A stretch of DNA of 32,000 nt from Synechococcus sp. A15-24 (GTDB lineage: Bacteria > Cyanobacteriota > Cyanobacteriia > PCC-6307 > Cyanobiaceae): the NCBI RefSeq assembly GCF_014280195.1, contig NZ_CP047960.1, positions 1,470,001 through 1,502,000 of the forward strand, written 5' to 3'. The notes beneath the pieces are model-generated. The model did not search any database, had not been told where the DNA came from, and saw nothing but the letters and a program-made list of their open reading frames with translations. The translations under genes and the position numbers were made by a program. Positions 1 to 22,937 of this stretch are shown here, piece after piece (positions within the stretch are counted from its first letter, which is position 1; each line of letters opens with the position of its first letter).

Positions 1-25
1 ATAATTTGACACTGATAGATTGGTT

Positions 26-283
26 TTAATTGTTTATTGATGATTGTGGTTGAACACCTTTACGGTCCTCCTCATACTCATCGTGCCAAACCCAGGCCAT
101 CATTCCCATGCGTCTAGCTTCCTCCATGCGATACCTACGGCCAGTTCGTAGCCATGGCATCGGTCCATAAACTCCAGGATTCTTATCAAGACCAAACTCC
201 AGCCACCAACCTTGATTACTTGGAAGGTTCTGAGGTGGGCTACATACCTTGCAGGTGCGTTCCATGGCAGCCTTGGCTGTCAT
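26..283 (-). CDS. Hypothetical small protein (85 aa), no family recognised
   Basis: ATG-started ORF in the island with no better competing ORF. No motif recognised. Confidence 0.3.
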   Translation of the reverse strand: MTAKAAMERTCKVCSPPQNLPSNQGWWLEFGLDKNPGVYGPMPWLRTGRRYRMEEARRMGMMAWVWHDEYEEDRKGVQPQSSINN

Positions 284-514
284 GGTGTCTATTCCTGCGT
301 TGACGTACGTTGTGGCTCCACAGGACTGGCACTCAATGACTGTCCTGACACGGTTATTGAATTTAATTTCTCAGACATCAAGACTACAATTGTTAATACC
401 TTGCTGATCGAGTGCTTTATCGGTGCTACCTATGCATTCCCGATCACAAGGCAGCTTACTGCAGAGACAGCTGCTTCTTGATACTTGCTGTAACAAATGT
501 CGTCCTATAGATGA

Positions 515-1042
515 TCACTCCGGGATCAATACAGTATCAATCACGTGGATTGTGCCATTCGTAGCTTTGATATCTGCCTTTGTGACTGTGGAGTGGTCAA
601 TAAAAACCATTCCATCTTTTGTCTTGATTGTAATTGACTTACCATTGAGTGTTTCAGCACTAGACAACTTGACGACATCTGCAGCTTTTACATTTCCAGC
701 AACAACGTGATACGTAAGGATATCAGTTAATTTCTCTTTGTTTGAAGGCTTTAACAACAATGCAACTGTCCCATCAGGAAGCTTTGCGAAGGCCTCATCT
801 GTTGGTGCAAAAACGGTGAAAGGACCTTCACCCTTGAGTGCTCCTACTAATCCAGCCTCACCAAGCGCTGCCGCTAGGGTTTCAAAGCTGCCCGCAGTAA
901 CAGCCGTGTCAACTATGTCCATGGAGGGCATGGTGTGATCCTTATCACCCATATGACCTCCTGCGAAAGCGCTCGTAGAGGTCAACAGGCTTAGGGACAA
1001 TGCGGCAGCCCCTAAACGAAGCGTGTGATGGAGAACTGACAT
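515..1042 (-). CDS. Secreted fasciclin (FAS1) domain protein
   Basis: 175-aa ORF. N-terminal signal peptide ends ...[12 protein letters not shown]1 hallmark blocks [11 protein letters not shown] and [13 protein letters not shown] are present. Confidence 0.85.
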
Positions 1043-1149
1043 TTGCGTGAATCAAAGTCCATATATCTTAACAAGGCACCGGTCTCTTCGGTGAGACATC
1101 CTGGCTTGGCTCTGGTTTCAGTGAGCCATAGAAAGAGAAGGCGGGGCAC

Positions 1150-1198
1150 GAAAAGATAAAACCTACAGAATTGACAGGATGCAGTTGCTACCTGTCAA
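1150..1198 (-). terminator. Candidate intrinsic terminator (hairpin TTGACAGG-N12-CCTGTCAA, then a T-rich tail on the minus strand)
   Basis: Perfect 8-bp stem at 1171-1178 / 1191-1198. The minus strand continues TTCTGTAGGTTTTATCTTTT. It lies 48 nt downstream of the micro-ORF at 1247-1348. Confidence 0.35.
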
Positions 1199-1246
1199 CC
1201 CTGCAGATCTGATCGAAGACTCTTGGCGTAATTTCTCTTGCGTGCT

Positions 1247-1348
1247 TCACTTTCTTAGTACCTTTGTCTGGTGTAGAAGGGGATGCTTATAACCTTGACT
1301 TCTGATGTAGTCAGCCAATTGTTCAAGCTCGTTTTTCTGATAAGTCAT
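1247..1348 (-). CDS. Micro-ORF, 33 aa (MTYQKNELEQLADYIRSQGYKHPLLHQTKVLRK)
   Basis: ATG preceded by AGGAG 9 nt upstream and followed by the hairpin at 1171-1198. It is below the ORF-track length cutoff. No homology evidence. Confidence 0.25.
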   Translation of the reverse strand: MTYQKNELEQLADYIRSQGYKHPLLHQTKVLRK

Positions 1349-1455
1349 GTTTGACAACTCCTGTTCTCTGCTTTTCTGGATGTGATCACTATTGATTTGA
1401 TTGTACATTGATAAATGACTATTGTGATTTTGATTAATCAGATGTTAGATTAAAG

Positions 1456-1552
1456 ATTGGGTATTAGTTCACCTACATCACGAAGGACGTAGGAGACTAA
1501 TACCAATACGAACCATTGGAATTGAACCAATGCAAGGTCACCAGACGTTCGT
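1456..1552. other. Structured element: a 52-nt imperfect hairpin followed immediately by a tRNA-like acceptor/T-arm minihelix
   Basis: In 1456-1507, ATTGGGTATTAGT pairs with ACTAATACCAAT, with an inner CCTAC/GTAGG stem. In 1508-1552, ACGAAC pairs with GTTCGT and encloses ATTGG-AATTGAA-CCAAT. On the minus strand that reads as a T-arm with loop TTCAATT (T54 T55 C56 R57 A58 pattern, G53:C61 pair). No D arm or anticodon arm could be folded. Confidence 0.4.
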
Positions 1553-1590
1553 TGAGCTAAACATACCCATCCATAAGGACGGCTTTTTTT

Positions 1591-1674
1591 ATGACATGTG
1601 ATTTAGATGAACCAGTGCACCCAATGGTTGCTAACGGCCAATCACCTCCGTTAGCTAAGACAACCAACAGGTAA
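1591..1674 (+). CDS. Micro-ORF, 27 aa (MTCDLDEPVHPMVANGQSPPLAKTTNR)
   Basis: ATG with AAGGA about 11 nt upstream. The stop codon lies in the loop of the terminator at 1666-1690. Speculative. Confidence 0.2.
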   Translation: MTCDLDEPVHPMVANGQSPPLAKTTNR

Positions 1675-1690
1675 TGCTCCTGTTTTTTAT
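1666..1690 (+). terminator. Intrinsic terminator
   Basis: AACAGG-TAATGCT-CCTGTT followed by a T run (TTTTTTAT). Confidence 0.45.
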
Positions 1691-1977
1691 TCGCTTGAAG
1701 GTTGTTGTATCCATACAGTATGAATAGTAATATCAAGATGTCCCTTCAATGGACATAGTGATATTCAGATTCAAGCTTGGCAAAAAGATCAAGCAAACCT
1801 ATTTATTAAACATGTTGTTTATTTTGTCCATCGAGTAAACAAAGAGTTGATAAGTAGTAACACAAAGCGTTTCCAAAATCAACCAGGAGTTAGTACAAGT
1901 TAAATCAATGTGTCTTTTGGTTTACTTGTCTTTGGGCGGTACTTACAGAATGTCCGTCTCGCTGCGCTCGACCTGGA

Positions 1978-2007
1978 CATTAATAAAGGGGATGGTTTGT
2001 CATCCCC
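1978..2007 (-). terminator. Intrinsic terminator (minus strand)
   Basis: GGGGATG-N6-CATCCCC, a 7-bp stem at 1988-2007. The minus strand continues TTTATTAATG. It lies about 60 nt downstream of the micro-ORF at 2067-2207. Confidence 0.45.
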
Positions 2008-2066
2008 AAAGGTACAGAAAGAAGAGTACACCCACTCTCTTCCCCCTGTATACGTGTCGGACCGCT

Positions 2067-2207
2067 TTAAACCCAGGTGGGGACTGAGGTCATAGGATTA
2101 CCTCTTGCTTGTCTTCTTTGGTCAATATTCATACCAAAGACCATGTGATTTGCAGCAGCTTGAGGGTCGTCTTGCCATTCAGCAAGCATTTCATTCCACT
2201 CTTCCAT
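2067..2207 (-). CDS. Micro-ORF, 46 aa (MEEWNEMLAEWQDDPQAAANHMVFGMNIDQRRQARGNPMTSVPTWV)
   Basis: ATG ORF with its own downstream hairpin terminator. It is below the ORF-track cutoff. No family recognised. Confidence 0.3.
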   Translation of the reverse strand: MEEWNEMLAEWQDDPQAAANHMVFGMNIDQRRQARGNPMTSVPTWV

Positions 2208-2368
2208 TTTGCGTGATTTGACTGCTTCAACTTGACGTGCTCACAATGCCGCCTGAACCCGATTACAAGTAATTGCTAGTGAGTGTGAAATTGATTGAAC
2301 TTTTGTAGTATTTGAGTAGGCTTACGAATGATGCTGGACAGCCTTGTCCATTTTGTTTCTTCAAAGTC

Positions 2369-3562
2369 TTAGAGAAGATTCACAGCTCGCTTCAATTCAC
2401 TCCAAGGAGTAGCGCCATATGCCATAGAAATAGAATTAGGTGTGTGGCCAAGCAAAGTAACGACAACAGCCTCATTCATGTTATGTGCTCTCAATATGGT
2501 TGCCGCTCTGTCTCTAAAACCTTTGGGAGTTATTCCAACTATTTTCCTACACGGCTTTGAAAGATTGACTCCCCAACGCTTATTCGCCCCTTGGTACTGA
2601 CCCGGCCACAAAAGATCTTTCCTTTCGCGCATCTCAATAGACAAAGACTTCAATCTTGGATGAATTGGAATTGACCTCGCAGAGGAATCGCTCTTCAAGG
2701 GTCTTAACGCATTGGGTCGGATCAGTATCCGGTCATCAAGCAGGTCTTCTGCTTGCAAGCCAGCAATCTCAGCAAGTCGAGCACCAGTGAAATAAAGGAA
2801 CTTGAAAATCTCTATCTGTTCACCCGACCCATTCCACTGTGATGGATCAGTGATTGTGACATCAAGTTTTCTGACTTTAACGACCTTGATCCGCGTATTT
2901 AAGCCCTTGAATATATGGGTGCAATCCGGTCGTAGTTCACAAAGCACTGACCAGAGTCCACAAAGAAATGCGAGACGCGTTTTGACAGTTGAAGGACTTA
3001 GACGTGACAGCAACGAGGAGCGATAAGCAACGGCGTGTTGGCGTGAAGCAGACGTTGGGTACGTGACTGCAGAGTGTGTCAAGAAATCGTCCAAGGCAGC
3101 CTTCCAAGCGATCTCCGTCCGTGCTGCAGGTGACTTCAGTGCCTTGGCCTGCTGGATCAGCTCTTCTTTGGACAGGTGGTCTGGTGGCTGCTTCTCACCC
3201 TTCAAAATCGCTCTGTATCTGGCCGCTTGATCGAGAGTTATCGACCCTTCCTCAACCTCAACATCACAGCCAGTAAGCAGCGTTTCGACAATTTCTGGAT
3301 CAGACAGATCAAACCGTTGAGGAACAAAATCAATTAGCTCGTCGCCAGTCAGTGAAACCTCATTGCGAGCCTCAGCAATCAGTCGATCTGTCTTTGCTGC
3401 AAATGCAGCTGAGAGCCTCTGTGCGACGCGGTAGGTCGATCCAGCAGCCTCAACCCAAATCGTTTTGCCTATGACTGGCTGAACGTCCTTGGGAACGCCA
3501 CGCTGCAACTGGTAGCCATTGCGGGCCTGACGCACGTATGTCGGATGCTTCCGAAAAGGCAC
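2369..3562 (-). CDS. int: Tyrosine site-specific recombinase (phage-type integrase)
   Basis: 397-aa ORF with a GTG start. C-terminal catalytic blocks are FTGARLAEIAGL (Arg), GFRDRAAT, LLGHTPNS (His) and SMAYG (Tyr nucleophile). Confidence 0.9.
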   Translation of the reverse strand: MPFRKHPTYVRQARNGYQLQRGVPKDVQPVIGKTIWVEAAGSTYRVAQRLSAAFAAKTDRLIAEARNEVSLTGDELIDFVPQRFDLSDPEIVETLLTGCDVEVEEGSITLDQAARYRAILKGEKQPPDHLSKEELIQQAKALKSPAARTEIAWKAALDDFLTHSAVTYPTSASRQHAVAYRSSLLSRLSPSTVKTRLAFLCGLWSVLCELRPDCTHIFKGLNTRIKVVKVRKLDVTITDPSQWNGSGEQIEIFKFLYFTGARLAEIAGLQAEDLLDDRILIRPNALRPLKSDSSARSIPIHPRLKSLSIEMRERKDLLWPGQYQGANKRWGVNLSKPCRKIVGITPKGFRDRAATILRAHNMNEAVVVTLLGHTPNSISMAYGATPWSELKRAVNLL

Positions 3563-7659: not shown

Positions 7660-7703
7660 CTCCTGATACCGTTTTTATTGAACGGTATCAGGAGATTTTT
7701 TTT
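7660..7703 (+). terminator. Strong intrinsic terminator of rpsD, possibly bidirectional
   Basis: CTCCTGATACCGTT-N7-AACGGTATCAGGAG (14-bp stem) followed by ATTTTTTTT. Confidence 0.85.
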
Positions 7704-7735
7704 GATTTTTTCCTTTTAGTTAAACACCATTTTGT

Positions 7736-9088
7736 CTAATTAATTAGTGCCTGATACATTACCCTTGAAAGCAATCTAATGCCATCGTCATCTTTCAAAG
7801 TTTTAAAATCAGGCATATTATTGTAAAAAATTGACAAATCATCTAGCAATTCAGGATGAAATTGGAAAGTAAACGATTTTCGTATTTTTTGAGTTTGATA
7901 ATCTAAATAATTTATGCAAGTAGCTGCTACTTCTGTGCAGACTTCTCCATTTATACGAGTTGAGCAAACAATTTCAACAGATGTTGGTAGATTCAAAATC
8001 CAAGATAGATCTGATATCAATATCTTCTTTCTTATAGGATAAACTGCCTTGTGCAATTCTCCAAATGCCCAATTAGCAAAAAGAATTGCTTCCTGGTTAA
8101 CTACATCGCTATGAAACATTTCTATATGGAGGTTTTTTTCATAAGTAATAAATTTTTCGACAACACCCAGTTCATGCTCGTGAGATAGCTCATGACACAT
8201 AAGTAAATTTGAAAATTCATCACTAGGATGCAGTCCAGAATGCGAATATTTCTTTAGGTCTACTTTGCCGACCTCAGGCTTAAGGTTAAGCGCAACTGCA
8301 AAACAACTATCATTCCAGCCTTTTGCAACTATCTTTTCATTTCTATAAACACATAAACTTTCTCCAACCAAGATAATTTCCGTACACTTCTTCCTGAGAT
8401 TGTCTAGATAGTAATTACTATCTTCACAATTAATCAAAAATGATAAACAGTCATCAGTCGCTCTTTTAATTATCTCTATATGAGCCTGAGCAGCAAGTTG
8501 ATGACCTAGGCAAATAAATATAGCAGGAGATGAGTTTGAATCCCTTGAAAGTATAATTTCCTCAGCAACTTCTTGCAAATCTTCTAGCTTAATACTTGTA
8601 TCATCAAAGCTTTTGCAATCTTTTAAAGTTGGATAACCCCCCTCTACGAAACACATAATACAGTTTTTAATCAATTCTATTAAAAGTTCATTATTTAAAG
8701 GACCAGCCTCCCAGAGTGGTATCAATATTGAATCGCAGTCGGCTATATATTGAGACAAGTACGCAATATTTATAGATGCTTTAACCTCATTCCCATATGG
8801 ATTTACTCCGACATGCTTAGCGGGCTCTATTATACAAATAGAATTTCTATAAATTCCAGGATATTTTAGAATTTCTTTTAAATCATTATTCGATCTTACA
8901 ACTCTTTCCAAAGGACCTTCTTCTCCCCATTGACTATTGGCAAGTAAATCCAATTTCTTATCATAAAAAGGTTCAAGCAAACTATTTGAATCTCTATCAT
9001 TTATGAAATCGGCCAAAAGAAATTCAATACTTGTTCGATTCGATTTTCCAGGCCTGAAAAAGCCAGCCATAGCTTTAAATACTGACAT
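7736..9088 (-). CDS. Atypical long class I glutamine amidotransferase / peptidase C26-like protein
   Basis: Very AT-rich 450-aa ORF, with the start taken at MSVFKAMAG. The nucleophile elbow is AIFICLGHQLAAQ and the His-Glu dyad block is TFQFHPELL. About 218 residues separate them. Confidence 0.6.
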   Translation of the reverse strand: MSVFKAMAGFFRPGKSNRTSIEFLLADFINDRDSNSLLEPFYDKKLDLLANSQWGEEGPLERVVRSNNDLKEILKYPGIYRNSICIIEPAKHVGVNPYGNEVKASINIAYLSQYIADCDSILIPLWEAGPLNNELLIELIKNCIMCFVEGGYPTLKDCKSFDDTSIKLEDLQEVAEEIILSRDSNSSPAIFICLGHQLAAQAHIEIIKRATDDCLSFLINCEDSNYYLDNLRKKCTEIILVGESLCVYRNEKIVAKGWNDSCFAVALNLKPEVGKVDLKKYSHSGLHPSDEFSNLLMCHELSHEHELGVVEKFITYEKNLHIEMFHSDVVNQEAILFANWAFGELHKAVYPIRKKILISDLSWILNLPTSVEIVCSTRINGEVCTEVAATCINYLDYQTQKIRKSFTFQFHPELLDDLSIFYNNMPDFKTLKDDDGIRLLSRVMYQALIN

Positions 9089-9195
9089 TTTCAATATTAG
9101 CCTCTTTGTCAACCGTATTTTAGTATCTAGTACGACAGAGTGGCATGGCATTAGCGCTTTAATGATAATTAAAACGTAATCGATAGTGAAATAGA

Positions 9196-9375
9196 ATGTC
9201 TATTTATTGCTTATCTAGTGTGTCAAGCGTCCACTCACAAGGGCGAGCAATCAAGATCTCGTTGACCACTGTATTGGGAGCTGCTGAGGCATTTATTGCC
9301 AAGTACGCAGAGTGGATCAATAGTCACGGCGTTGATCTCACCTCGGCTCAACCAAGCGAATGGGCGGCTAGCTAA
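9196..9375 (+). CDS. Possible small ORF, 59 aa
   Basis: ATG ORF just under the track cutoff (MSIYCLSS...AFIAKYAEWINSHGVDLTSAQPSEWAAS). It precedes repeat copy R1. No other support. Confidence 0.2.
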   Translation: MSIYCLSSVSSVHSQGRAIKISLTTVLGAAEAFIAKYAEWINSHGVDLTSAQPSEWAAS

Positions 9376-14901: not shown

Positions 14902-15168
14902 TCACCGTGACGCCGAGCCGTCATGGTGGCGCTCCAGCCTGATCCGTTCATAGTCCGCATCCGACAGCTCCTGCATGCACAACATGGCGCTGAGACGACG
15001 GTGGTATCGGCAGTAGCCGAGAAAGGCATGCACACCGATCAGCAGGCCCCCGAACAGCAGCAACAGCGACTGGTCGGCTGTAGCCCCCACCAGCGCAGAA
15101 AAGCCCCAGGTGAGCAACAACGCCACAAGGGCGCTGCGCATCAACCGTCGTAGGGGCAAGACGACCAT
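14902..15168 (-). CDS. Small 2-TM membrane protein, 88 aa
   Basis: ATG 14 nt downstream of the stop of the 750-aa gene. Two hydrophobic helices and a charged C-terminal tail. Confidence 0.6.
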   Translation of the reverse strand: MVVLPLRRLMRSALVALLLTWGFSALVGATADQSLLLLFGGLLIGVHAFLGYCRYHRRLSAMLCMQELSDADYERIRLERHHDGSASR

Positions 15169-15182
15169 CGGAAAGCCTGACG

Positions 15183-17435
15183 TCAGTCTTCGGTGAACTG
15201 ACCGCTGCGCGCCAGGATCTCTTCCGCAGCACTGAAGTGAGGCTCGTCCAGCACCATATCAGGGTTGTAGCGGTAGTTCTCATGCAGAAACCTGGACTGG
15301 GTGACAGCGTCTTCAACGCCGTTGATGGCACCGACTGCCCGTGAACGAACGCTCTTCTGCTGCTCCAGGTCGTCGGAATGCAGAGAGACCTGCAATTCAT
15401 CACGCAGCACCGAAAGATGGGCTGCGCTTTTCACCACGCCGTAGATGCGTTGCACCCGATCCCGTTCGATCGACTCAACCCCCAGGGTGTGTGCCCGCTC
15501 CAGCTCCGAATCCAGGCTCGGCCAGTACCGGGAGGTGTAATACGCACCGGAGTCCTGGTGGTACCAGGATTCACTACGGGCGATGGAGGAGGACACGGTG
15601 TTGTGCAGCTTCCAGAGGAACAACCGCAGCGAATCACCATCGCTCACGCGCTCCAGCTTGTCCTGCAGGGAGACCTCCAGAGTGCTGCTGGCCTCATCCG
15701 ATCCCAGCAGCAGGTACTCAATCGGATACATCGACACCTCGCGATTACGCACCACGTAGCGATTGAGATGAAAGCGGCAGTAGGGGCAGGGATACATCGT
15801 GGCCAGTGCAGCAAAGAAGGCCTTGAACGTCTCCACCGATTGCTGCTGCTGCCCACCCGGTTGGGCGGCGATCAGTTCAGCACTGGTGTGCATGAAACGC
15901 CAGGTCGCCGGTCCGATGTAGTAAGGGAAACTCACCCGCATCTGGCTGGCCTCCACGTCATGCCGGCCGACGTGCAGATCCAGAAAGGCGACGTACTGGC
16001 AGAGGAAACCGGATTCACGCCCGAACTCCTCCCGCTCCCGGCGTTTCTGGACACCGTTGAGGTAATGGCGGGTCAGCTCCCAGGCCCGTTTTAGCTCCTT
16101 CTTGACCTCCAGAGGACGGGAGTTGAAGGCCTCCTCAGTGGCATGGCCGTAGAGATCAAACTCGCCGGCGGCATGGCGTTCAGCGAACCAGGCATTGAGA
16201 TCGGTGTCGTCGGCGTTATCCCAAGCGAAGATGTCGTCTTTGCTCAGAACCGAACTCGCCCGCAGCAGCAGTGGCATGAACTCGTCGTACCAGTAGGCCG
16301 TTGGCATGATCGAGCCGGCGAAGCGCTCATCACCGGGGTCGACGATCACCCGCTGCCAACTGTCGTGATAGGGACGTGTTGAAGCGGGTTTCTGATGATC
16401 CAGCTCAGCGGTGACCTCACGATGGTCATCAAGCTGCCGAAGGCGATTCAGCTCGTGGCTCTGAAGATCCTCATGGGTGACCTGATCCGGGCTGTGGCCA
16501 TGCAGTGCCGCCGTCAGCAACACCTCCAGCACCACGGACACGATCTGATGATGGTGGTCCAGCTCCGCCAGTTCCTGCTCCAGCCGGCCCTCCGCCTCCA
16601 GCATCGCTTCAGTGGGAGAGATCGACTCCCAGTTCGCCATGCGCTCGCGCAGGGCCTCTTCGGCACCATTCACAGAAGTCTTCAGGCTCTCGAACGGCTC
16701 TTCAGCGCCAGGCTCAACGATGCCGAGGGACAGGTAGAGATCAACGGCCGCATTCACGAACCGAACAAAGTCCGGAATCGTGTACGGCAGGTCGTAGGCC
16801 CGTAGGTGGGTCTCGGAATTGGCGGAGTAGCTCTCACGAAAACTGCGGTAAGCCGCCCCTTGGATCAGACGGAACCAACCGATCTGCATCTGCAACGGTG
16901 ACGTCCCCTTGTGATTGTTCAGACCACCCTGATTGCCTCGCCCTGCTGAAGAAGTACCGCGGGAGACCCCATGGGGATCCACCGCCCGGTGCCCGCCGCT
17001 GTAGGCGCGCGGATGCGCTTCAAATCCCTCTGGCAGGTAGTCCAGCAGTCGCTGGAGGTCGATCCGGTCAGAACCGTCCCGAGCGATTTCGATCGCAATG
17101 GCATCGGCCGTTTGCTCAGACACCTCAAACAGATGGATCAACCGCTTGAGATCCGCCAGCTCGATCCAGCCATCACCGTCCTGATCGAGCAAACGGAAGG
17201 CCTCACGTGCCTTGAGGCCGGCGTCACCCACCTGCAGTGCCAGCAGAAGGCGCCACTCCTGAAGACTGATGGCTCCATCCTTGAGCCGATACGCGTCAAT
17301 GGCACCGTTCAGGTCGTCCATGGTGAGATCCGCGCCGCTGGATTGCAGGCGGCCTGCCATCTGCCCCGCCGTCAACCCAGTGGGCGACAACCCTGAAAAG
17401 ACAGTTTCAAAGGCACTGGAGGAGAGAGAAGCCAC
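15183..17435 (-). CDS. EF-hand calcium-binding / Erv1-ALR-type FAD sulfhydryl-oxidase-like fusion protein
   Basis: 750 aa. EF-hand loop DQDGDGWIELADL plus flanking EF-like loops. The C-terminal blocks are TWRFMHTSAE, MYPCPYCRFH and LWKLHNTVS, in the order and spacing of the Erv/ALR fold. GTG start 33 nt after the mscS stop. Confidence 0.8.
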   Translation of the reverse strand: MASLSSSAFETVFSGLSPTGLTAGQMAGRLQSSGADLTMDDLNGAIDAYRLKDGAISLQEWRLLLALQVGDAGLKAREAFRLLDQDGDGWIELADLKRLIHLFEVSEQTADAIAIEIARDGSDRIDLQRLLDYLPEGFEAHPRAYSGGHRAVDPHGVSRGTSSAGRGNQGGLNNHKGTSPLQMQIGWFRLIQGAAYRSFRESYSANSETHLRAYDLPYTIPDFVRFVNAAVDLYLSLGIVEPGAEEPFESLKTSVNGAEEALRERMANWESISPTEAMLEAEGRLEQELAELDHHHQIVSVVLEVLLTAALHGHSPDQVTHEDLQSHELNRLRQLDDHREVTAELDHQKPASTRPYHDSWQRVIVDPGDERFAGSIMPTAYWYDEFMPLLLRASSVLSKDDIFAWDNADDTDLNAWFAERHAAGEFDLYGHATEEAFNSRPLEVKKELKRAWELTRHYLNGVQKRREREEFGRESGFLCQYVAFLDLHVGRHDVEASQMRVSFPYYIGPATWRFMHTSAELIAAQPGGQQQQSVETFKAFFAALATMYPCPYCRFHLNRYVVRNREVSMYPIEYLLLGSDEASSTLEVSLQDKLERVSDGDSLRLFLWKLHNTVSSSIARSESWYHQDSGAYYTSRYWPSLDSELERAHTLGVESIERDRVQRIYGVVKSAAHLSVLRDELQVSLHSDDLEQQKSVRSRAVGAINGVEDAVTQSRFLHENYRYNPDMVLDEPHFSAAEEILARSGQFTED

Positions 17436-17468: not shown

Positions 17469-19216
17469 TCAACGGCCTCCGGCCGTTAGCGGCAGCACGC
17501 TGCCCAGATCCAATCCGTCTGCCAGCTGATCCCCTCGGCGATGCAACGCCCGCAGAGCACGGCGTTGAAACTCCCGCTCCGTCGTCCATTGCTCGCCGGC
17601 GCGGGTCACCAGCAACACCTGCATCTGAACCCCAAGAGCCGTGGTGCGCTTGACGCCCCGCAGGATCGGATCCCCCAGCAGCCGGCTGCCCCACACAGGG
17701 TCGAGAGAGAAGTCCTCGATCTCGAGCGCCAGGGTTCTGTAGACAATCTCCAGATCCGTTTGTCGATGTGAAATCACAAACGTGACCAGACTTCCCGAGC
17801 GCAGCTTCGTGTGGTTCCGCATCTGCAGGATCGAGGAGTTGTCGAGGATGTTCATCCGTTGGTCCAGGCAGCGGATCTGGGTGCTGAACAGGCCCATCTC
17901 AATCACTTCTCCCTCGATGCCCTCCACCTCGATCCAGTCGCCGATGGCGTAGCGGTCCTCCAGCAGCATCACCAACCCTGCAGAAAAATCCCTCAGCAAT
18001 CCCTGGAACACAAACGCCAGCGCTCCCAGCAAGGCACCACCGGCCAGCAACAGCGACACCGACGCGGAACGAACGCCAGGGATATCCAGCAGCACCCAGA
18101 GCAGCACCACCCCGATCCCGACCACGTTGATCAACCGATGCGTTGTGCTCAGCAAACTGCAATAGCGCTGCTGACGCCGGGCCTGAAGCCGCTGAGGAAC
18201 ATCCACATCCGCCGCCCACTGGCTGAGCAGGAAAGTGCTCAAGCTGCGCAGCAGGAACGCTGCCAGCGTTACCGCCAGAAACTTGATCACAGCAAGCGAT
18301 GGCTGCAACACCAGCTCAATCCCCAGGGGAACCTGACTGGGGATCGCCACCACCACCACACCGAACATCAGCACCAGCAGGTAGAGCATCAGCAACAGCA
18401 CGCCGATGCTCAGGGCCTGTTCTGCGTGCAACCGAGTTTCGCTCCTGCGATCAGAACGCCCCCGGGTCCGCAGCTCACCATGCAGGCGTGAAGTGCGTTG
18501 CCGTAGTCGCCGCCAGAGCAGCAACATCGCCGCAAACAACAGCAGCAGCAGCAGTTCCAACACCAAGGCCAGACGGAAGCGTCGGGCCAACTGCGGCGGT
18601 GCATAGATCCGGCGGGCATGGTTCAGCCGCTCCTCCAGGTGTTCCCGCCAGGCCTGGGCCAGGGCCAACTCCCGTGCCCCATTGATCTCCGCATCGGCAC
18701 GGGTCACGGTCAACAGCGGGAAGGGTTGCTTGCGTCCCGGCAGCCGTGCCGCCAGCTCATAGGGACCACTGCCGTTCCGCAGCACCTCCAGGGTCAACGG
18801 CGTGCCGGACCGATCCAGGCCGTAGCGCTGACCAGCCGTGCAGACGTGCGCATCGGACTGAAGAAGGCTGTCCAGCATCCACTCGCTGAGCCGCTCGCTG
18901 AAACTGCAGAGCTGGTTTGGGTCGTAAAGAGCGCGCAGATTGCCTTCAATCACCCTGGCTCTCACCGAGGCCTCAATCCCGCGCTGGTCCCCCAGCTGCA
19001 CCGGGCTGGCGACGGTGATGGCGGGCACCCCGAGAATCCGGACCTTGGCCAGCTTGAATTTCCTTCGAACTGCGCCTGCTTGTCCTGCTGTTGAGCAGGA
19101 GATCCCGCCGGACCGGTCGGGATGAAATCCAGTATCGACGCCTGAGCCACAAGCGGCATCAGGGCCAACAGCACTGCCGTTGACCAGAGCCCCAGGCGTC
19201 GTCTGAGACGGAACAC
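17469..19216 (-). CDS. MscS-family mechanosensitive channel; the N-terminus appears frameshifted
   Basis: MscS beta-domain block AIGDWIEVEGIEGEVIEMGLFSTQIR, with multiple TM helices upstream. A good signal peptide (MFRLRRRLGLWSTAVLLALMPLVAQA, GTG at 19216) is in a different frame from the channel body. The body frame is open from 19307 and overlaps maf. Confidence 0.75.
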
Positions 19217-19219
19217 GGC

Positions 19220-19864
19220 TCAACCTGGCGTTAATGAATTCATTGTGCTGTCCCTGAGAATGGATCGCAGCCAAGGCAGGCTCAGGCCGATCACGTTGGA
19301 ATAACAACCTTCCAAACCGGCAATCAAAGGAGCCCCGCGGCCCTCGAGGGCGAAACCGCCGGCACAGTGAAGCGGCTCTCCGGTGGCGACATAGGCCTGG
19401 ATCTCTTTTTCAGTTATTGCAGCGAAATGGACGCGGGTGCTGACGCAGGCCAGGCGGTTCTCGCCGCTGCGAACCAGCAGGGCGTGCCCGGTGAGCAACT
19501 CGCCGCTGCCTCCGGCCATGCGCCGCCAGCGCGCAGCAGCTTCCTCCGCATCCTGCGGTTTGCCAAACACCTCCCCCTCGAACAGCAGAAGCGAATCGCA
19601 CCCCAACACCAAGGAGATCTCAGCGTCGCTTCCGTCCGAAACAGCTTTGGCCTTCGCCAAGGCCAACTGCTGCACCAGCTGGGCGGGGTCGTCGTTCTTG
19701 ATGGTGCTTTCATCCACTCCGCTGACGCGCACGCGATGGGGAATCTGCGCCAGTTCAAGCAGCCGGCGGCGAGCCGGCGAGGCAGAGGCCAGAAGCAGCA
19801 CAGAATCACTCCGCTGGGAACACTCCGTAGGCTGCCAACACTGGGGGATTCCGCCATCGAACAT
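19220..19864 (-). CDS. maf: Maf-like nucleoside-triphosphate pyrophosphatase / septum formation protein
   Basis: N-terminal [14 protein letters not shown] block and the C-terminal Maf fold sequence. The start is at an internal ATG (19864 or 19894). The upstream part of the 343-aa track ORF is not Maf-like. Confidence 0.85.
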
Positions 19865-19912
19865 CCCACTGAGCTTCTTGATCAACGCAGCCATGCGCGT
19901 GCCCTGCGCTCG

Positions 19913-20236
19913 ATGCGCTGCCTGCCCTTCGCGGCGGAGCTCTACCGGGAGCTTCAGCAGCAGGGGCTGGATGCCCACACCATCTGGCAAAACAGGTCTC
20001 GCTTTGGCCGTGGCCCGTCCTGGCCAGGCGATGGGGAACGACTGGAAGACGACCTGCGCTGGCTGATCACCGTTGGTGTGCTGCGACGGGAAGTGGACGG
20101 CCAGGGGCTCACCAGTCGCTTTCGGCTCACCCCCCTCGGACGTGACCTGCTGGATAGCCATCAGGCTGAGCTGCTGAAGCCAGCGGACTGGAACGATCGC
20201 TTGCGGCATGCGCTGCGGCGCCGCTGGCCCTTTTGA
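19913..20236 (+). CDS. Conserved hypothetical protein, 107 aa
   Basis: ATG at 19913, divergent from maf. The stop overlaps the cobQ start. The sequence is protein-like (…[33 protein letters not shown]). The upstream 180 codons of the track ORF are antisense to maf and are rejected. Confidence 0.5.
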
Positions 20237-21708
20237 CCGGCAAGCGGCCACTGATGGTGCTGGGGACCTCCAGTGGGGCCGGCAAATCCCTGATGACAGC
20301 AGCCCTCTGCAGGGTGCTGCACCGCCGCGGTGAACAACCGCTGCCCTTCAAGGGGCAGAACATGAGCAACAACGCCTGGGTGGATGCCGACGGCGGCGAG
20401 ATGGCGTACTCCCAGGCGATGCAGGCCTGGGCCGCCCGTCTGGAGCCTTGCTGTGCCATGAATCCCGTGCTGCTCAAGCCACGGGGCGACAGCACCAGTG
20501 AGGTGATCCACGGCGGCAACAGCGTTGGCCTGGCCCGAGCGGAGCACTACTACCGCGACTGGTTCCGTCCTGGCTGGCAGGCGATCCGTGAAGGGCTGCA
20601 GACCTTGCAACAGCGATGGCCCAACGGTCGGCTGGTGCTGGAGGGGGCCGGCAGTCCGGTGGAGGTGAATCTGCAACGACGGGACCTCACCAACCTGCGG
20701 CTGGCCCAATACCTGCGAGCCAACTGCCTGCTGGTGGCGGACATTGAACGTGGCGGCGTGTTCGCACAGATCGTCGGAACGCTGGAACTACTACGCCCGG
20801 TGGAACGGCCGTTGATCAAAGGGATCCTGATCAACCGCTTCCGCGGCCGGCGGGAGTTGTTCGATGAAGGACGCACCTGGCTGGAGGAGCACACCGGTGT
20901 GCCGGTGCTGGGGGTGATGCCCTGGCTCAACTATCTGTTTCCGCCGGAGGATTCCCTCGATCTGCTGGAGCGCAAACCCAACCGAGGACCCACCGATCTG
21001 GAGATCGCAGTCCTGAAACTGCCGTCGATCAGCAACTTCTCCGATCTGGACCCCCTGGAGGCGGAACCCAGCCTGCGGCTGCGCTGGGTGCACCCTGGCG
21101 ACACCCTCGGAAGCCCTGATGCCGTGCTGCTGCCTGGCAGCAAGCAGACGCTGAACGACCTCACTGTTTTGAAAACATCTGGCCTGGCCGACCAGATCAG
21201 ACGCTATGCCGATCACGGGGGGAACGTCTTCGGTATCTGCGGAGGTATGCAGTTGATGGGAGAGCAGCTCGAGGATCCAGATCAACTGGAAGGAGGTGCG
21301 TTGCAAGCAAGTGGTCTGGGTTTGTTGCCACTGATCACGCAATTCACGACGTCCAAGGTCTTGCGTCAACGTGAGGTTGAATTGAGCTGGCCGATTAGAA
21401 CAACGGTGCAGGGATATGAACTGCATCAGGGTCTGACGCATCCAACGGAACGATCACTGGCGGCGTCAATCAGTGAGGAAGAAGGCCTGGGTTGGCACGT
21501 TCAGGGGAACAATGCCGGCACCTACCTGCACGGAATTTTCGATAACGGAAGCTGGAGACGCAGCTGGATTAACCGCCTAAGAACTGCAAAACAATTGCCA
21601 TCACTTCCACTTGATCAACCGCATCACGCATTACAGCGAGAACAACTGCTTAACCGATTAGCAACATCATTCGACGAGCACGTGCAATGGCACAAGCTAC
21701 TGCAATAA
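20233..21708 (+). CDS. cobQ: Cobyric acid synthase
   Basis: N-terminal GTSSGAGKS nucleotide loop. C-terminal CobB/CobQ-type GATase with [11 protein letters not shown] and YLHGIF. TTG start at 20233, alternative ATG at 20254. Confidence 0.9.
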
Positions 21709-21762
21709 TTTAACAATATCAAAACTCTAAGTACACTCGCGCAAAGTAGAGCTTACAAAACA

Positions 21763-22937
21763 GTGACTCTCATGGCTCATTCTGTTACCGCCGAACAATC
21801 TCTCCCTACAGAACAGTCCATCGATCACATCTTGAATTGGTGTGGAGTTTTACTCGACTGCGAGACCCATCGGGAAAATTTTTTCAGTCGCCCCACGGGC
21901 CAGCAGATTTTCTACTGGATGTACGCGGGGCCTACGCAACTTGTCAATATTAATCGGAGAGGAACATCTGGTTCGGTAGAAATCGAAGCAATCCAAGTAC
22001 GAGACGAGGATTACCAATGGGCCGTTGATGTCTTTGATACACTTGATTACTATTTAGAACCTGAATTTGTATTAATCAACGATATCAATCAAGCCGATTT
22101 AAGGCTTTGGGGAACCAGTGGTCACAATTTAATAAGTGAAACCAGCACATTATTTGGCTTTGCCACACCATTCAACGCCGACGAAAAGGGATATGTTGAC
22201 GTTGTTGTCAATGTAGAAGCGGGGAACTTATCCGGCGTCACTGCTGACTTCGCCCCTGAGAACACAAACACAGCTCTTCATGAGATTGGCCACGCACTTG
22301 GACTGAGTCACCCAGGGGTTTACGGCAAAGACCTTCCGAACTGGGAATTATATGACTCCGAAGACACGATTATGAGTTACAACAAGCCTGAAGATGGCAT
22401 TCATGCAGGCTTTTACAGCGAAGGTGACATCCTGGCATTACAAGAGATCTGGGGAGCTGAAGGCAGCTACAAAGCTCCGCCTCAATCTGAGTCAAAAGGC
22501 TCCGGGGGAAGTACTCCAGAAAATAACGACATTGAGTTTATTTACGCCATAGCAGGCAAGGGAAAATTAAAAGGCAATACCAAACATTCGACTAATTACA
22601 TTTTCGATGGCCTTGATGTATTTGGGAAAAAGGTGCTGACAAAATCACTAAGTTCATCCCCAGCTCAGGCGACTCCCTAATCTTCACAACCAATGCATTG
22701 CCTGAGCTCGCCAATCGAGAGCAATTCTTTTTCAATACCGCTAAAAACAAAAAACAGCTCAAAAAATTCTCTAAAGAGTGCTACGACTTTGTTTATTATC
22801 AGAAAAAGGGGATGCTTTACTTTGACGGCAACTGCGAAGCCGAGGGCTGGGGCTCAACCGCCGAGGGAGGATTAATCGCTATATTGAAAAACAAACCTGA
22901 GCTCACAATTGACAATCTGACAGTTGAAATTATTTAG
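21763..22937 (+). pseudogene. Serralysin-like (M10 metzincin) metalloprotease with an RTX-style C-terminal domain, interrupted by a 1-nt frameshift
   Basis: HEIGHALGLSHP zinc site, Met-turn TIMSYN and DILALQEIWG lie in frame 1. The C-terminal continuation ADKITKFIPSSGDSLIF...VYYQKKGMLYFDGN...LTIDNL lies in the -1 frame. The two frames can only join at the A5 run at 22627-22631. Confidence 0.7.

What the first reader, a model, noticed from the sequence alone, without database searches (positions are those of the whole stretch)
15183..17435. EF-hand / Erv1-ALR sulfhydryl-oxidase fusion protein in a cyanobacterium
The 750-aa ORF starts with an EF-hand region. It has a canonical loop DQDGDGWIELADL flanked by EF-like loops RLKDGAISLQEW and ARDGSDRIDLQRL. 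Its C-terminal third carries, in the correct order and spacing, the three signature blocks of FAD-linked Erv1/ALR thiol oxidases. These are TWRFMHTSAE (W-x-x-[LM]-H-T), MYPCPYCRFH (Y-P-C-x-x-C-x-x-H, the redox-active CxxC) and LWKLHNTVS (W-x-x-H-N-x-V). The Erv/ALR family is classically eukaryotic (mitochondrial intermembrane space, ER) or from large DNA viruses. To my knowledge bacterial members are rare, and no EF-hand fusion has been characterised. No signal peptide is visible. The roughly 350-aa His/Glu-rich middle region matches nothing I recognise. The architecture suggests a Ca2+-gated, probably cytoplasmic, disulfide-forming enzyme. That is unexpected in a reducing cytoplasm. The gene lies about 7 kb from the carboxysome superlocus, and carboxysome lumens are thought to be oxidising, but any functional link is pure speculation.
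Basis: partly seen in the sequence, partly recalled or inferred. Interest (0 to 1): 0.75.

Follow-up and report, generated by a model that had tools for sequence, protein, structure and literature searches.

The report
Calmodulin-like domain fused to thiol oxidase
This marine Synechococcus gene encodes a probably cytoplasmic Erv/ALR-type disulfide-forming enzyme joined to a decayed calmodulin-like calcium sensor; the family is widespread in cyanobacteria, already labelled by databases, and apparently never studied.

Summary
A 750-aa ORF (15183-17435, minus strand) passes Pfam's curated cut-offs for Erv1/ALR (42.2 bits against 27.6) and for an EF-hand model. Its CPYC aligns on the catalytic CxxC of solved Erv1/ALR enzymes.

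The fusion is not rare. At least 266 species genomes encode it: Synechococcus, Cyanobium, some Prochlorococcus, Nostocales, Oscillatoriales and a Rhodobacterales/Rhizobiales clade (one copy on a plasmid). Databases already call it "ERV1/ALR-related", "EF-hand domain-containing" or "thiol oxidase". EF-less relatives occur in a protist (Hondaea) and a giant virus (Yasminevirus).

In filamentous cyanobacteria the N-terminus is a true four-EF-hand calmodulin-like domain, 53% identical to human calmodulin. In the marine clade it has decayed, and this protein keeps one canonical loop.

CxxC, W-x3-H and H-N-x-V are invariant in every complete orthologue examined. There is no signal peptide, membrane helix or second redox cysteine pair.

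The best reading is a cytoplasmic thiol oxidase whose ancestral calcium control is weak or lost here. The fold test was inconclusive. The carboxysome link is not supported. No functional study was found. It is a new variant of a known kind, of moderate interest.

The parts
15183..17435 (-). Whole gene: 750-aa calmodulin-like / unknown helical / Erv1-ALR protein (stop codon 15183-15185)
   Evidence: ORF list; Pfam; a 98%-identical 750-aa protein in metagenomes confirms the gene model
17016..17435 (-). N-terminal EF-hand (calmodulin-derived) domain, residues 1-140, four helix-loop-helix units
   Evidence: Pfam EF-hand_6 31.1 bits. PDB phmmer hits are all calmodulin, residues 33-130. AF2 block-mean pLDDT is about 80-88 over residues 11-100 and lower towards both ends, with paired helices. 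It aligns to the four-EF-hand domain of the Nostoc orthologue.
17148..17186 (-). The only canonical EF-hand loop, DQDGDGWIELADL (residues 84-96); equivalent to EF3; Asp at loop position 12
   Evidence: PS00018 regex match; alignment to EF3 of the Nostoc domain; coordinates verified
17253..17288 (-). Degenerate EF2-equivalent loop RLKDGAISLQEW (residues 50-61)
   Evidence: Fails PS00018; column comparison with orthologues
17046..17084 (-). Degenerate EF4-equivalent loop ARDGSDRIDLQRL (residues 118-130); canonical in some freshwater relatives (DRDGSGEISRDD)
16905..17015 (-). Poorly conserved, probably disordered linker (residues 141-177)
   Evidence: pLDDT below 50 for residues 142-174; 41% identity within the marine clade
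15924..16904 (-). Conserved helical middle region (residues 178-504), function unknown; always accompanies this Erv domain, including in the eukaryote and virus-like relatives
   Evidence: 85% identity in the marine clade; many invariant positions; no Pfam hit and no PDB profile hit; present in the distant tiers
15558..15923 (-). Divergent Erv1/ALR domain (residues 505-626) with an insertion of roughly 30 residues between helices 3 and 4
   Evidence: Pfam PF04777 42.2 bits. Profile against PDB: Erv1 4e0h E=2.9e-7, AtErv1 2hj3, ALR 1oqc, Erv2 1jr8, mimivirus R596. hhalign against ALR: 94% probability.
15888..15902 (-). Helix-1 motif W512-x3-H516 (WRFMH)
   Evidence: Invariant in 74 sequences; aligned with W..LH of Erv1/ALR
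15777..15788 (-). Redox-active C550-P-Y-C553
   Evidence: Invariant in all 78 complete orthologues and all 74 aligned sequences; aligned on the catalytic CxxC of Erv1/ALR
15591..15614 (-). Helix-4 motif W608-K-L-H611-N612-T-V614-S615
   Evidence: WK[LI]HN[TA]V in 78/78 loci; covered by Pfam profile positions up to 82
15186..15557 (-). Conserved helical C-terminal extension (residues 627-750), ending in ARSG-x-[FY]-x-E
   Evidence: 79% identity in the marine clade; long predicted helices at 658-686 and 690-714
17469..19307 (-). Upstream MscS-family channel gene, same strand, 33-nt gap: a possible operon partner in this lineage only
   Evidence: Pfam MS_channel_2nd. The same arrangement occurs in KORDI-100, L010 and L015. 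MscS genes also adjoin the orthologue in three Nostocales loci. Absent from most other loci.
14902..15168 (-). Small 88-aa hydrophobic ORF 14 nt downstream on the same strand; weakly conserved
   Evidence: ORF list; 67%-identical ORF at the same position in L010; no Pfam hit

Best explanation
The gene encodes a soluble, probably cytoplasmic, FAD-linked sulfhydryl oxidase of the Erv1/ALR type. The conserved unit has three parts: an unknown helical region, a divergent Erv domain and a helical tail.

Inferred chemistry, from the known chemistry of the Erv family: a substrate dithiol reduces the C550-x-x-C553 disulfide, the electrons pass to bound FAD, and then to O2 (giving H2O2) or to another acceptor. 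No second 'shuttle' cysteine pair is conserved, so the CxxC must meet its substrate or a partner protein directly, as in the poxvirus enzyme E10R.

The N-terminus descends from a four-EF-hand calmodulin-like domain that is intact in filamentous cyanobacteria and some Cyanobium. There it most likely makes the oxidase respond to Ca2+, which is the same logic as the EF-hand-gated flavoenzymes NOX5, DUOX and RBOH. In marine picocyanobacteria this domain has decayed. This protein keeps one canonical loop (EF3, with Asp at position 12), so its calcium response is probably weak, altered or lost, and the domain may act mainly as an intramolecular or protein-binding module.

Shown here: domain identity, residue conservation, distribution and decay of the EF loops. 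Inferred: FAD binding, oxidase activity, location, Ca2+ control and substrate.
For: - Pfam Evr1_Alr above its gathering score, covering profile positions 2-82 of 93.
- The family profile hits solved Erv1, AtErv1, ALR, Erv2 and R596 with CPYC on the catalytic CxxC. hhalign against ALR gives 94% probability.
- Y[PA]CPYC and WK[LI]HN[TA]V are present in 78/78 complete orthologues. W512, H516, C550, C553, H556, H611, N612, V614, S615 and R620 are invariant in 74 sequences down to about 41% identity.
- The predicted helices 509-523, 527-546, 551-557 and 600-620 match the order of Erv helices, with block-mean pLDDT about 84-95 except for the short third helix, about 58.
- No membrane helix or signal peptide.
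- The Nostoc orthologue's N-domain is 53% identical to human calmodulin, E=2e-50, and has four EF-hand_1 stretches. Nostocales, Oscillatoriales and Cyanobium orthologues have 2-4 PS00018 loops; most marine ones have none.
- The window protein's canonical loop aligns to EF3.
- N-domain identity is 58% against 85-86% for the middle and Erv regions in the marine clade. In filamentous forms it is 72% against 78-89%.
- The N-terminal module is replaceable. The eukaryote tier carries no EF-hand and mostly starts with MG.
- Precedent: calmodulin-like EF-hands fused to redox enzymes in cyanobacteria (PMC7016017).
Against: - The third helix is predicted short, and a roughly 30-residue insertion with an invariant YP-x-EY motif separates it from the fourth helix, so FAD geometry could differ.
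- HNxVN is HNxVS here.
- No shuttle or structural disulfide is conserved.
- A few distant relatives have lost the CxxC (P0145, P0180), so the scaffold can persist without redox chemistry.
- No conserved partner gene points to a substrate.
- There are no experimental data at all.
Confidence: 0.55

Rival explanations
1. One reading: the single canonical EF3 loop, perhaps paired with the degenerate EF4, is enough for a Ca2+ switch that turns the oxidase on in marine Synechococcus.
For: The loop at residues 84-96 fits PS00018 exactly and passes the EF-hand_6 cut-off. Pairs of one canonical and one degenerate EF-hand can work in other proteins (own knowledge). Some freshwater relatives keep a different single canonical loop, EF4, as if at least one site were worth keeping. 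An MscS-type channel gene lies immediately upstream.
Against: Only 10 of 117 close full-length relatives keep any strict PS00018 loop, and most marine Synechococcus and all Prochlorococcus loci examined have none, so selection is not holding a Ca2+ site in this clade. The N-domain evolves much faster than the catalytic part. Asp rather than Glu at loop position 12 usually lowers Ca2+ affinity (own knowledge).
Confidence: 0.2
2. The Erv-like domain is redox-active but is not an O2-consuming oxidase. It would be a thiol-disulfide relay or sensor that passes electrons to another acceptor (a quinone, cytochrome or partner protein), or reports the cellular thiol state.
For: Erv1/ALR use cytochrome c in vivo (own knowledge). 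The large conserved middle and C-terminal regions could dock a specific partner. No shuttle disulfide is conserved. Several filamentous orthologues sit next to a hybrid histidine kinase.
Against: The FAD-contact motifs of the oxidases are all conserved. No redox partner gene is conserved nearby. The histidine-kinase adjacency was seen only in a set of Nostoc loci and its clustering rests on a very common receiver domain.
Confidence: 0.15
3. It is a pseudoenzyme or scaffold. The Erv-like bundle no longer binds FAD and the protein has a structural or signalling role unrelated to disulfide formation.
For: Foldseek did not recognise an Erv fold. The domain has a large insertion and a short third helix. 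Some distant relatives lack the cysteines. The N-domain is already decaying.
Against: Both cysteines and the W/H/H-N residues are invariant across all 78 complete bacterial orthologues examined, which is hard to explain without chemistry at that site. Erv is the best-conserved region of the protein (86% in the marine clade, 89% in filamentous forms).
Confidence: 0.06
4. It oxidises carboxysome components, or it is exported to form disulfides in the periplasm or thylakoid lumen.
For: The CO2-uptake genes chpX, ndhD4 and ndhF4 and the CsoSCA gene lie 8-14 kb away in this window.
Against: The neighbourhood is not conserved outside close relatives. The family also occurs in Nostocales and Oscillatoriales, which build a different carboxysome type (own knowledge), and in alphaproteobacteria, a heterotrophic protist and a giant virus. 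There is no signal peptide, twin-arginine motif or membrane helix.
Confidence: 0.03

Closest known systems
Erv1 / ALR (GFER) / Erv2 FAD-linked sulfhydryl oxidases (Pfam PF04777)
   Same: Homologous catalytic domain. The W-x3-H, YPC-x-x-C and H-N-x-V motifs appear in the same order, and the CxxC aligns with the catalytic one.
   Different: The known enzymes are 100-200 residues long, eukaryotic, live in the mitochondrial intermembrane space or ER, and carry a shuttle CxxC/CxC and usually a structural disulfide (own knowledge). This protein is 750 aa, bacterial and apparently cytoplasmic. It has only the one cysteine pair, a roughly 30-residue insertion between helices 3 and 4, and about 325 + 125 residues of unknown conserved helical sequence around the domain.
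Cytoplasmic viral Erv oxidases (vaccinia E10R, ASFV pB119L, mimivirus R596, baculovirus P33)
   Same: Erv enzymes that work in a reducing cytoplasm; E10R also lacks a shuttle disulfide and hands oxidising equivalents to partner proteins (own knowledge). A whole-length structural match to a Yasminevirus protein shows that giant viruses also carry this long architecture.
   Different: The characterised viral enzymes are short or have unrelated extra domains, and none has EF-hands. R596 is only a weak sequence match (E=5e-3). The nudivirus P33-like match is not significant (E=1.1).
EF-hand-gated flavoenzyme oxidant generators: NOX5, DUOX, plant RBOH, including cyanobacterial NOX5
   Same: The same logic in the ancestral form: an N-terminal calmodulin-like EF-hand domain attached to a flavoenzyme that reduces O2. 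The paper on Ca2+ activation of NOX5 was listed (PMC7317449), and NADPH-oxidase fusions in cyanobacteria are noted in PMC7016017.
   Different: The catalytic domain is unrelated. There is no ferric-reductase membrane domain and no NADPH-binding domain. The electron donor would be protein or small-molecule thiols, so the product is a disulfide plus H2O2, not superoxide.
Cyanobacterial calmodulin-like EF-hand fusion proteins catalogued by Schaffer, Iyer, Burroughs and Aravind 2020 (PMC7016017)
   Same: The Nostoc orthologue's N-domain is 53% identical to calmodulin. This fits their finding that the bacterial versions closest to eukaryotic calmodulin occur in cyanobacteria, fused to redox and signalling domains.
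   Different: [quoted passage not shown] Erv/ALR was not found in the main text. Their Figure 3E and supplement were not readable here.
QSOX (quiescin sulfhydryl oxidase)
   Same: A long, multi-domain Erv oxidase in which extra helical sequence precedes the Erv domain (own knowledge).
   Different: QSOX has thioredoxin domains that supply the shuttle CxxC, and it is secreted (own knowledge). No thioredoxin domain, no second CxxC and no signal peptide are present here. No QSOX entry appeared among the 50 best Foldseek matches listed for either model.

Membership tests
Erv1/ALR sulfhydryl oxidase (PF04777) | Matches the family HMM above the curated gathering score | tested here: met
   42.2 bits against 27.6, E=1.1e-10, profile positions 2-82 of 93. 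Orthologues from Nostoc, Cyanobium, Prochlorococcus and Rhizobium score 39.5-42.3 bits.
Erv1/ALR sulfhydryl oxidase (PF04777) | Redox-active CxxC at the start of helix 3, equivalent to the catalytic pair of solved enzymes | tested here: met
   CPYC aligns with CNWC of Erv1 4e0h, CREC of AtErv1 2hj3 and CEEC of ALR. It is invariant in 78/78 loci.
Erv1/ALR sulfhydryl oxidase (PF04777) | FAD-contact motifs: W-x3-H in helix 1 and H-N-x-V-N-x-x-L-G-K in helix 4 | tested here: met
   W512/H516 and H611/N612/V614 are invariant. Conservative differences: S615 replaces the second Asn and R620 the Lys, and both are invariant. The roles of these motifs in FAD contact come from own knowledge of the published structures.
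Erv1/ALR sulfhydryl oxidase (PF04777) | Four-helix bundle that cradles FAD, plus a short fifth helix | tested here: inconclusive
Erv1/ALR sulfhydryl oxidase (PF04777) | Second 'shuttle' cysteine pair on a flexible arm (typical of cellular members; absent from vaccinia E10R) | tested here: not met
   The protein has only three cysteines (479, 550, 553) and C479 is not conserved. This is typical of the family rather than strictly defining.
Erv1/ALR sulfhydryl oxidase (PF04777) | Bound FAD and thiol:O2 oxidoreductase activity | not testable with these tools
   Needs purified protein.
EF-hand / calmodulin-like domain | Matches an EF-hand HMM above its curated cut-off | tested here: met
   EF-hand_6 31.1 bits against 25. 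The EF-hand pair model scores 29.8 against 30, just below. The Nostoc orthologue scores 109.5 bits on EF-hand_7.
EF-hand / calmodulin-like domain | Canonical 12-residue loop with ligands at positions 1, 3, 5 and 12 and Gly at 6 (PROSITE PS00018) | tested here: met
   Met for one loop only (residues 84-96). The other three helix-loop-helix units fail. Orthologues in filamentous cyanobacteria have 2-3 matching loops and some Cyanobium have 4.
EF-hand / calmodulin-like domain | Descent from a four-EF-hand calmodulin-like domain | tested here: met
   The window N-terminus aligns to the Nostoc domain, E=2e-11, which is 53% identical to human calmodulin over 140 residues. The best PDB matches to the window's N-terminus are all calmodulins.
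EF-hand / calmodulin-like domain | Ca2+ binding with a conformational change | not testable with these tools
   Needs ITC, NMR or Tb3+ luminescence.
NOX5/DUOX/RBOH EF-hand-gated NADPH oxidases | Ferric-reductase membrane domain and FAD/NADPH-binding dehydrogenase domain | tested here: not met
   No such Pfam hit even at E up to 10, and no membrane helix. This is an analogy of logic only.
QSOX | Thioredoxin domain(s) with their own CxxC fused upstream of the Erv domain | tested here: not met
   No thioredoxin hit and no second CxxC.

The most novel reading that the evidence does not exclude
The family is a calcium-to-redox converter that has not been described. In it a calmodulin-type domain would switch on a cytoplasmic Erv oxidase, so that a Ca2+ transient (for example after osmotic or mechanical stress, given the recurrent MscS neighbours) is turned into protein disulfides and/or a pulse of H2O2. 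The same catalytic unit (middle region + Erv + tail) was re-used with other N-terminal modules: an N-terminal MG start typical of myristoylation in protists such as Hondaea, and long unrelated N-termini in giant-virus-like sequences. The marine Synechococcus protein in this window would be a version that is losing its calcium control. The family might also explain old reports of calmodulin-like immunoreactivity in cyanobacteria (own recollection, not checked).
Probability: 0.3. Interest if true: 0.8.

Novelty: new variant of a known kind. Interest (0 to 1): 0.55.

Why it matters
Deliberate disulfide formation in a bacterial cytoplasm is unusual, and no bacterial Erv/ALR enzyme appears to have been characterised in the literature searched here. 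Calcium signalling in cyanobacteria is also poorly understood: a 2026 paper states that only two Ca2+-binding proteins have been analysed in Nostoc (PMC13578307).

A conserved protein that joins a near-calmodulin domain to a thiol oxidase gives a concrete, testable link between Ca2+ and thiol redox or H2O2 signalling in major primary producers. It also offers natural comparisons: intact EF-hands in Nostoc, a decayed domain in marine Synechococcus and Prochlorococcus, and no EF-hands in protist relatives. Finally, it bears on how Erv oxidases and calmodulin-like domains moved between bacteria, eukaryotes and giant viruses.

For this particular window the finding is more modest. The protein is one ordinary member of a large family that databases already label.

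Tried and rejected
- **Conserved operon partner.** MIT S1220, a freshwater Synechococcus and another clade all have different neighbours. All-against-all clustering of neighbours over 80 loci found only clade-level synteny, MscS channels in three separate settings, and a histidine kinase in Nostoc loci. Within marine Synechococcus the MscS gene is present in only a subset. I keep it as a lead, not as evidence.
- **Carboxysome link.** Rejected on distribution and synteny.
- **Middle region.** No Pfam hit, no NCBIfam hit above cut-off, and no PDB profile hit even at E up to 10. Its function stays unknown.
- **'Tic110-like' fusion of PMC7016017.** No Tic110 Pfam hit in the window protein or the Nostoc orthologue. 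That paper's supplement is not held, so this could not be settled.
- **Phage carriage.** No match in 50,697 phage records.
- **Search with P0168.** It returned only itself. Its contig (HSP70, actin, ABC1, TROVE) does not decide between a giant virus and a compact protist.
- **Nat Commun 2026 paper.** Its 'Erv1' and 'sulfhydryl oxidase' mentions refer to the alga's own erv1.
- **tRNA next to the integrase-like gene.** None found in the window.
Full report
**1. The observation**

The window holds a 750-aa ORF at 15183..17435 on the minus strand, with a GTG start.

Pfam gives Evr1_Alr (PF04777) at E=1.1e-10. The score is 42.2 bits against a gathering score of 27.6, covering residues 510-622 and profile positions 2-82 of 93. 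EF-hand_6 scores 31.1 bits against 25. The EF-hand pair model falls just short, at 29.8 against 30. NCBIfam adds nothing above cut-off.

A direct search of PDB sequences with the whole protein finds only calmodulins, on residues 33-130. The PROSITE EF-hand pattern matches once, DQDGDGWIELADL at residues 84-96.

The protein has three cysteines (479, 550, 553). It has no hydrophobic stretch long enough for a membrane helix (maximum 19-residue hydropathy 1.36) and no signal-like N-terminus.

**2. Is the C-terminal third really an Erv domain?**

Evidence that it is:
- A profile built from the domain in twelve diverse relatives (A3) hits solved enzymes and essentially nothing else. The hits are yeast Erv1 4e0h (E=2.9e-7), Arabidopsis Erv1 2hj3 (6.8e-7), rat ALR 1oqc (1.5e-4), Erv2 1jr8 (1.2e-3) and mimivirus R596 3gwn (5e-3). 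In these alignments the family's CPYC sits on the catalytic CxxC, and 'GPATW..lHt' sits on 'GRSSWTLLHS'.
- AlphaFold2 on a 53-sequence alignment gives pLDDT 70.5 overall and predicts helices 509-523, 527-546, 551-557 and 600-620. That is the order of the Erv bundle. Block-mean confidence is about 84-95 for these helices, except the short third helix at about 58.

The fold itself is not confirmed:
- Foldseek against the PDB returned no Erv structure with the full-length model.
- It also returned none with a weaker C-terminal model (pLDDT 62).

The domain is divergent. The third helix is predicted short, and about 30 extra residues with an invariant YP-x-EY motif separate the CxxC from the H-N-x-V helix. 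Homology and the active-site register are shown. The three-dimensional FAD cradle is inferred.

**3. Conservation of the catalytic residues**

- In 53 full-length relatives (51-91% identical), W512, H516, Y548, P549, C550, P551, Y552, C553, R554, H556, W608, H611, N612, V614, S615 and R620 are invariant.
- In 78 complete orthologues from species-level genomes, all carry Y[PA]CPYC and WK[LI]HN[TA]V.
- In a 74-sequence alignment reaching about 41% identity, the same residues stay invariant, and C550/C553 are the only universally conserved cysteines.

The family therefore has no conserved shuttle or structural disulfide.

**4. Distribution**

The exhaustive search of 1.84 billion cluster representatives, run without the EF-hand region, found only 218 representatives, so the family is compact in sequence space. 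It is nevertheless widespread.

A scan of one genome per GTDB species found 266 genomes that encode a relative. They include:
- marine Synechococcus/Parasynechococcus;
- Cyanobium and freshwater Synechococcus;
- several Prochlorococcus;
- Nostocales (Nostoc, Tolypothrix PCC 7101, Calothrix, Scytonema);
- Oscillatoriales (Microcoleus, Kamptonema, Tychonema, Microseira).

There is also a coherent alphaproteobacterial clade. Its members are 62-85% identical to one another and their gene GC is close to that of the flanks. It includes the isolates Pararhizobium antarcticum and Rhizobium sp. FKL33. It also includes a copy on a 284-kb plasmid of Gemmobacter aquarius that RefSeq annotates as 'ERV1/ALR-related protein'.

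Source names in the protein collection show that pipelines already label the family: 'ERV1/ALR-related protein', 'Erv1/Alr family FAD-linked sulfhydryl oxidase', 'EF-hand domain-containing protein', 'Ca2+-binding EF-hand superfamily protein', UniRef 'thiol oxidase', and in some records 'histidine kinase', which finds no support in the Pfam domains on record for these proteins. One paper notes in passing that PF04777 occurs in Nostocales, Oscillatoriophycideae, Rhizobiales and Rhodobacterales (PMC10598087).

**5. The EF-hand domain**

In the filamentous cyanobacteria the N-terminus is a full calmodulin-like domain.
- The Nostoc orthologue (L069) is 53% identical to human calmodulin over 140 residues, E=2e-50.
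- It scores 109.5 bits on EF-hand_7 and has four EF-hand_1 stretches.
- Orthologues in Nostocales and Oscillatoriales carry two or three loops that fit PS00018, such as DVDGNGAISTEEL, DEDGSGQITAVEL and DHDGDGSIDFEEF. Some Cyanobium carry four.

In the marine clade the domain is decayed.
- Most marine Synechococcus and all four Prochlorococcus loci have no canonical loop.
- Of 117 close full-length relatives, only 10 have a strict match.
- The window protein's canonical loop aligns to EF3 of the Nostoc domain. Its 'RLKDGAISLQEW' and 'ARDGSDRIDLQR' are the degenerate EF2 and EF4.

Rates of change agree with this.
- Within the marine clade the N-domain is 58% identical to the window protein, against 85% for the middle region and 86% for Erv.
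- Among filamentous forms the calmodulin-like domain (72%) is conserved about as well as the rest (67-89%).

The fusion is therefore ancestral and probably calcium-responsive. In this lineage the sensor is eroding. Asp instead of Glu at loop position 12 of the surviving loop usually means weaker Ca2+ binding (own knowledge).

**6. Relatives outside bacteria**

The representative search showed two further tiers.
- Proteins of 570-680 aa at 36-40% identity cover the middle region, Erv domain and tail. They have short N-termini, mostly starting MG(N/S/G), which is typical of N-myristoylation. They have no EF-hand. One comes from EukProt, and a close relative is from the thraustochytrid Hondaea fermentalgiana (UniRef 'Sulfhydryl oxidase').
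- Proteins of 770-1480 aa at about 27-32% identity are Asn-rich. One lies among densely packed HSP70, actin, ABC1 and TROVE genes.

The full-length model has one strong match among viral protein structures. It is a 1140-aa Yasminevirus protein (E=7.6e-15, 752 aligned columns) labelled 'Histidine kinase'.

These distant tiers are closest to the slowly evolving Nostocales and four-EF-hand Cyanobium sequences. Two of them (P0145, P0180) have lost the CxxC.

The conserved unit is middle region + Erv + tail, and the N-terminal module varies. The middle region has no Pfam match and no PDB match by profile.

**7. Genomic context**

In the window the gene follows an MscS-family channel gene (17469-19307, same strand, 33-nt gap) and Maf. 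CobQ, a ClC channel, chpX, ndhD4, ndhF4 and the CsoSCA gene lie further on. KORDI-100, L010 and L015 share the MscS-then-Erv order. Most marine loci have Maf directly upstream without the channel, and other clades have unrelated neighbours.

Clustering the neighbours of 80 loci showed MscS-family genes immediately next to the orthologue, on the same strand, in three Nostocales loci as well: upstream in HT-58-2, and downstream in Nostoc MG11 and Nostoc B(2019). This recurrence in unrelated arrangements is suggestive of a link to membrane tension or ion flux. It is not conserved and was not tested statistically.

The carboxysome idea fails on distribution and synteny.

**8. Mechanism**

The best-supported reading is a cytoplasmic Erv-type thiol oxidase. 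A substrate dithiol would reduce the C550-C553 disulfide, the electrons would pass to FAD, and then to O2 or another acceptor. This chemistry is inferred from the family, not shown here.

With no shuttle pair, the active site must meet its substrate or a partner protein directly, as in vaccinia E10R (own knowledge). That an Erv oxidase can act in a bacterial cytoplasm is shown by its use to make disulfide-bonded proteins in E. coli (own knowledge).

The calmodulin-like domain probably gated the enzyme by Ca2+ in the ancestor. This parallels NOX5, DUOX and RBOH, and it fits the published observation that cyanobacterial calmodulin-like EF-hands are fused to redox enzymes (PMC7016017). In this marine protein the calcium response is probably weak or lost. 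The substrate and the physiological role are unknown.

**9. Novelty**

Searches found no paper that combines EF-hand, sulfhydryl oxidase and cyanobacteria. None uses the database name. No relevant paper combines EF-hand and Erv1.

The catalogue of cyanobacterial calmodulin-like fusions does not name Erv in its text. Its figure and supplement could not be read. A 2026 paper says only two Ca2+-binding proteins have been analysed in Nostoc.

The architecture is visible in databases but appears uncharacterised. It is a new variant of known kinds (Erv oxidases, and EF-hand-gated redox enzymes), not a new category. The window's copy is an ordinary, partly decayed member.

**10. Verdict**

- Observation: confirmed.
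- Interest: 0.55. The family merits experiments, best started with a Nostoc or Oscillatoria orthologue beside the marine one.
- Claims of rarity, of calcium gating in this organism and of a carboxysome link should be dropped or softened.

Noticed in passing
window 17469-19307 (-); L007, L010, L015, L054, L063, L088: An MscS-family mechanosensitive channel gene lies immediately next to the Erv gene on the same strand in part of the marine clade and, in different arrangements, in three Nostocales genomes. Most other loci lack it. This may hint at a link between membrane tension or ion flux and the protein.
   Followed up: partly
window 14902-15168 (-): An 88-aa hydrophobic ORF starts 14 nt after the Erv gene's stop codon. 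A 67%-identical ORF sits at the same place in L010. It has no Pfam match.
   Followed up: partly
window 1-3000, 7700-9200, 21700-22700: There are three low-GC patches (0.34-0.46) in a window that is mostly about 0.6 GC. The first holds a fasciclin-domain gene and a sub-threshold integrase-like gene (2369-3562). The second holds a 471-aa ORF with only a sub-threshold GATase hit. The third holds a 305-aa ORF with no Pfam hit. These look like small acquired islands. No tRNA gene was found anywhere in the window.
   Followed up: partly
window 19220-20251 (-): The mechanical ORF for Maf is 343 aa, but the Maf domain covers only residues 152-334, and the ORF's 3' end (stop at 19220) overlaps the listed 5' end of the MscS ORF by 88 nt. 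Orthologues are about 197 aa, so the real Maf start is probably internal; the listed TTG start of the MscS ORF may also be too far upstream.
   Followed up: no
L020, L026, L031, L032, L039, L040, L044; L089 (Gemmobacter aquarius plasmid NZ_CP028919.1): A coherent Rhodobacterales/Rhizobiales clade of the same protein exists, with degenerate EF-hands. It includes two isolates and a copy on a 284-kb plasmid, next to glgX, an AGE epimerase and a DJ-1/PfpI gene. Transfer between picocyanobacteria-like donors and alphaproteobacteria is likely.
   Followed up: partly
BFVD A0A5K0UAY3 (Yasminevirus); P0286, P0125, P0363: The giant-virus relative and several Nostocales orthologues are labelled 'histidine kinase'. 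The Pfam families on record for the three Nostocales proteins are only EF-hand models and PF04777, so the label looks like a propagated annotation error. The extra residues of the 1140-aa viral protein were not examined.
   Followed up: partly
P0134, P0135, P0137, P0139, P0142, P0276 (Hondaea fermentalgiana); P0145, P0180: The eukaryote-type relatives lack EF-hands and mostly begin MG(N/S/G), which suggests N-myristoylation and membrane tethering. Two distant relatives have lost the CxxC (YPCLYRR, YPGPYSQ), so they would be redox-dead copies.
   Followed up: partly
L008 (contig of P0168): An AT-rich contig carries a long relative among tightly packed, apparently intron-free genes for HSP70, actin, an ABC1 kinase and a TROVE protein. 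It is either a giant virus or a compact protist genome; this was not resolved.
   Followed up: partly
L061, L066, L068-L073, L078, L082, L084, L086, L087: In many Nostoc genomes a large ORF follows the orthologue on the same strand. In the one scanned (L069) it is a hybrid sensor kinase with GAF, HisKA, HATPase, receiver and PAS domains; the others were grouped with it by sequence similarity. This could be a clade-specific signalling link or simply inherited synteny.
   Followed up: partly
L022, L034, L035: Contigs carrying picocyanobacterium-like copies at about 0.63-0.68 GC are filed under MAGs named Klebsiella, Pseudanabaena and Pimelobacter simplex. These are probably binning or naming errors in the public records.
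   Followed up: no
74-sequence family alignment, column of window residue R440: A cysteine occupies this column of the middle region in 82% of orthologues, but it is Arg in the window protein. It could be an accessory redox residue that this sequence has lost.
   Followed up: no
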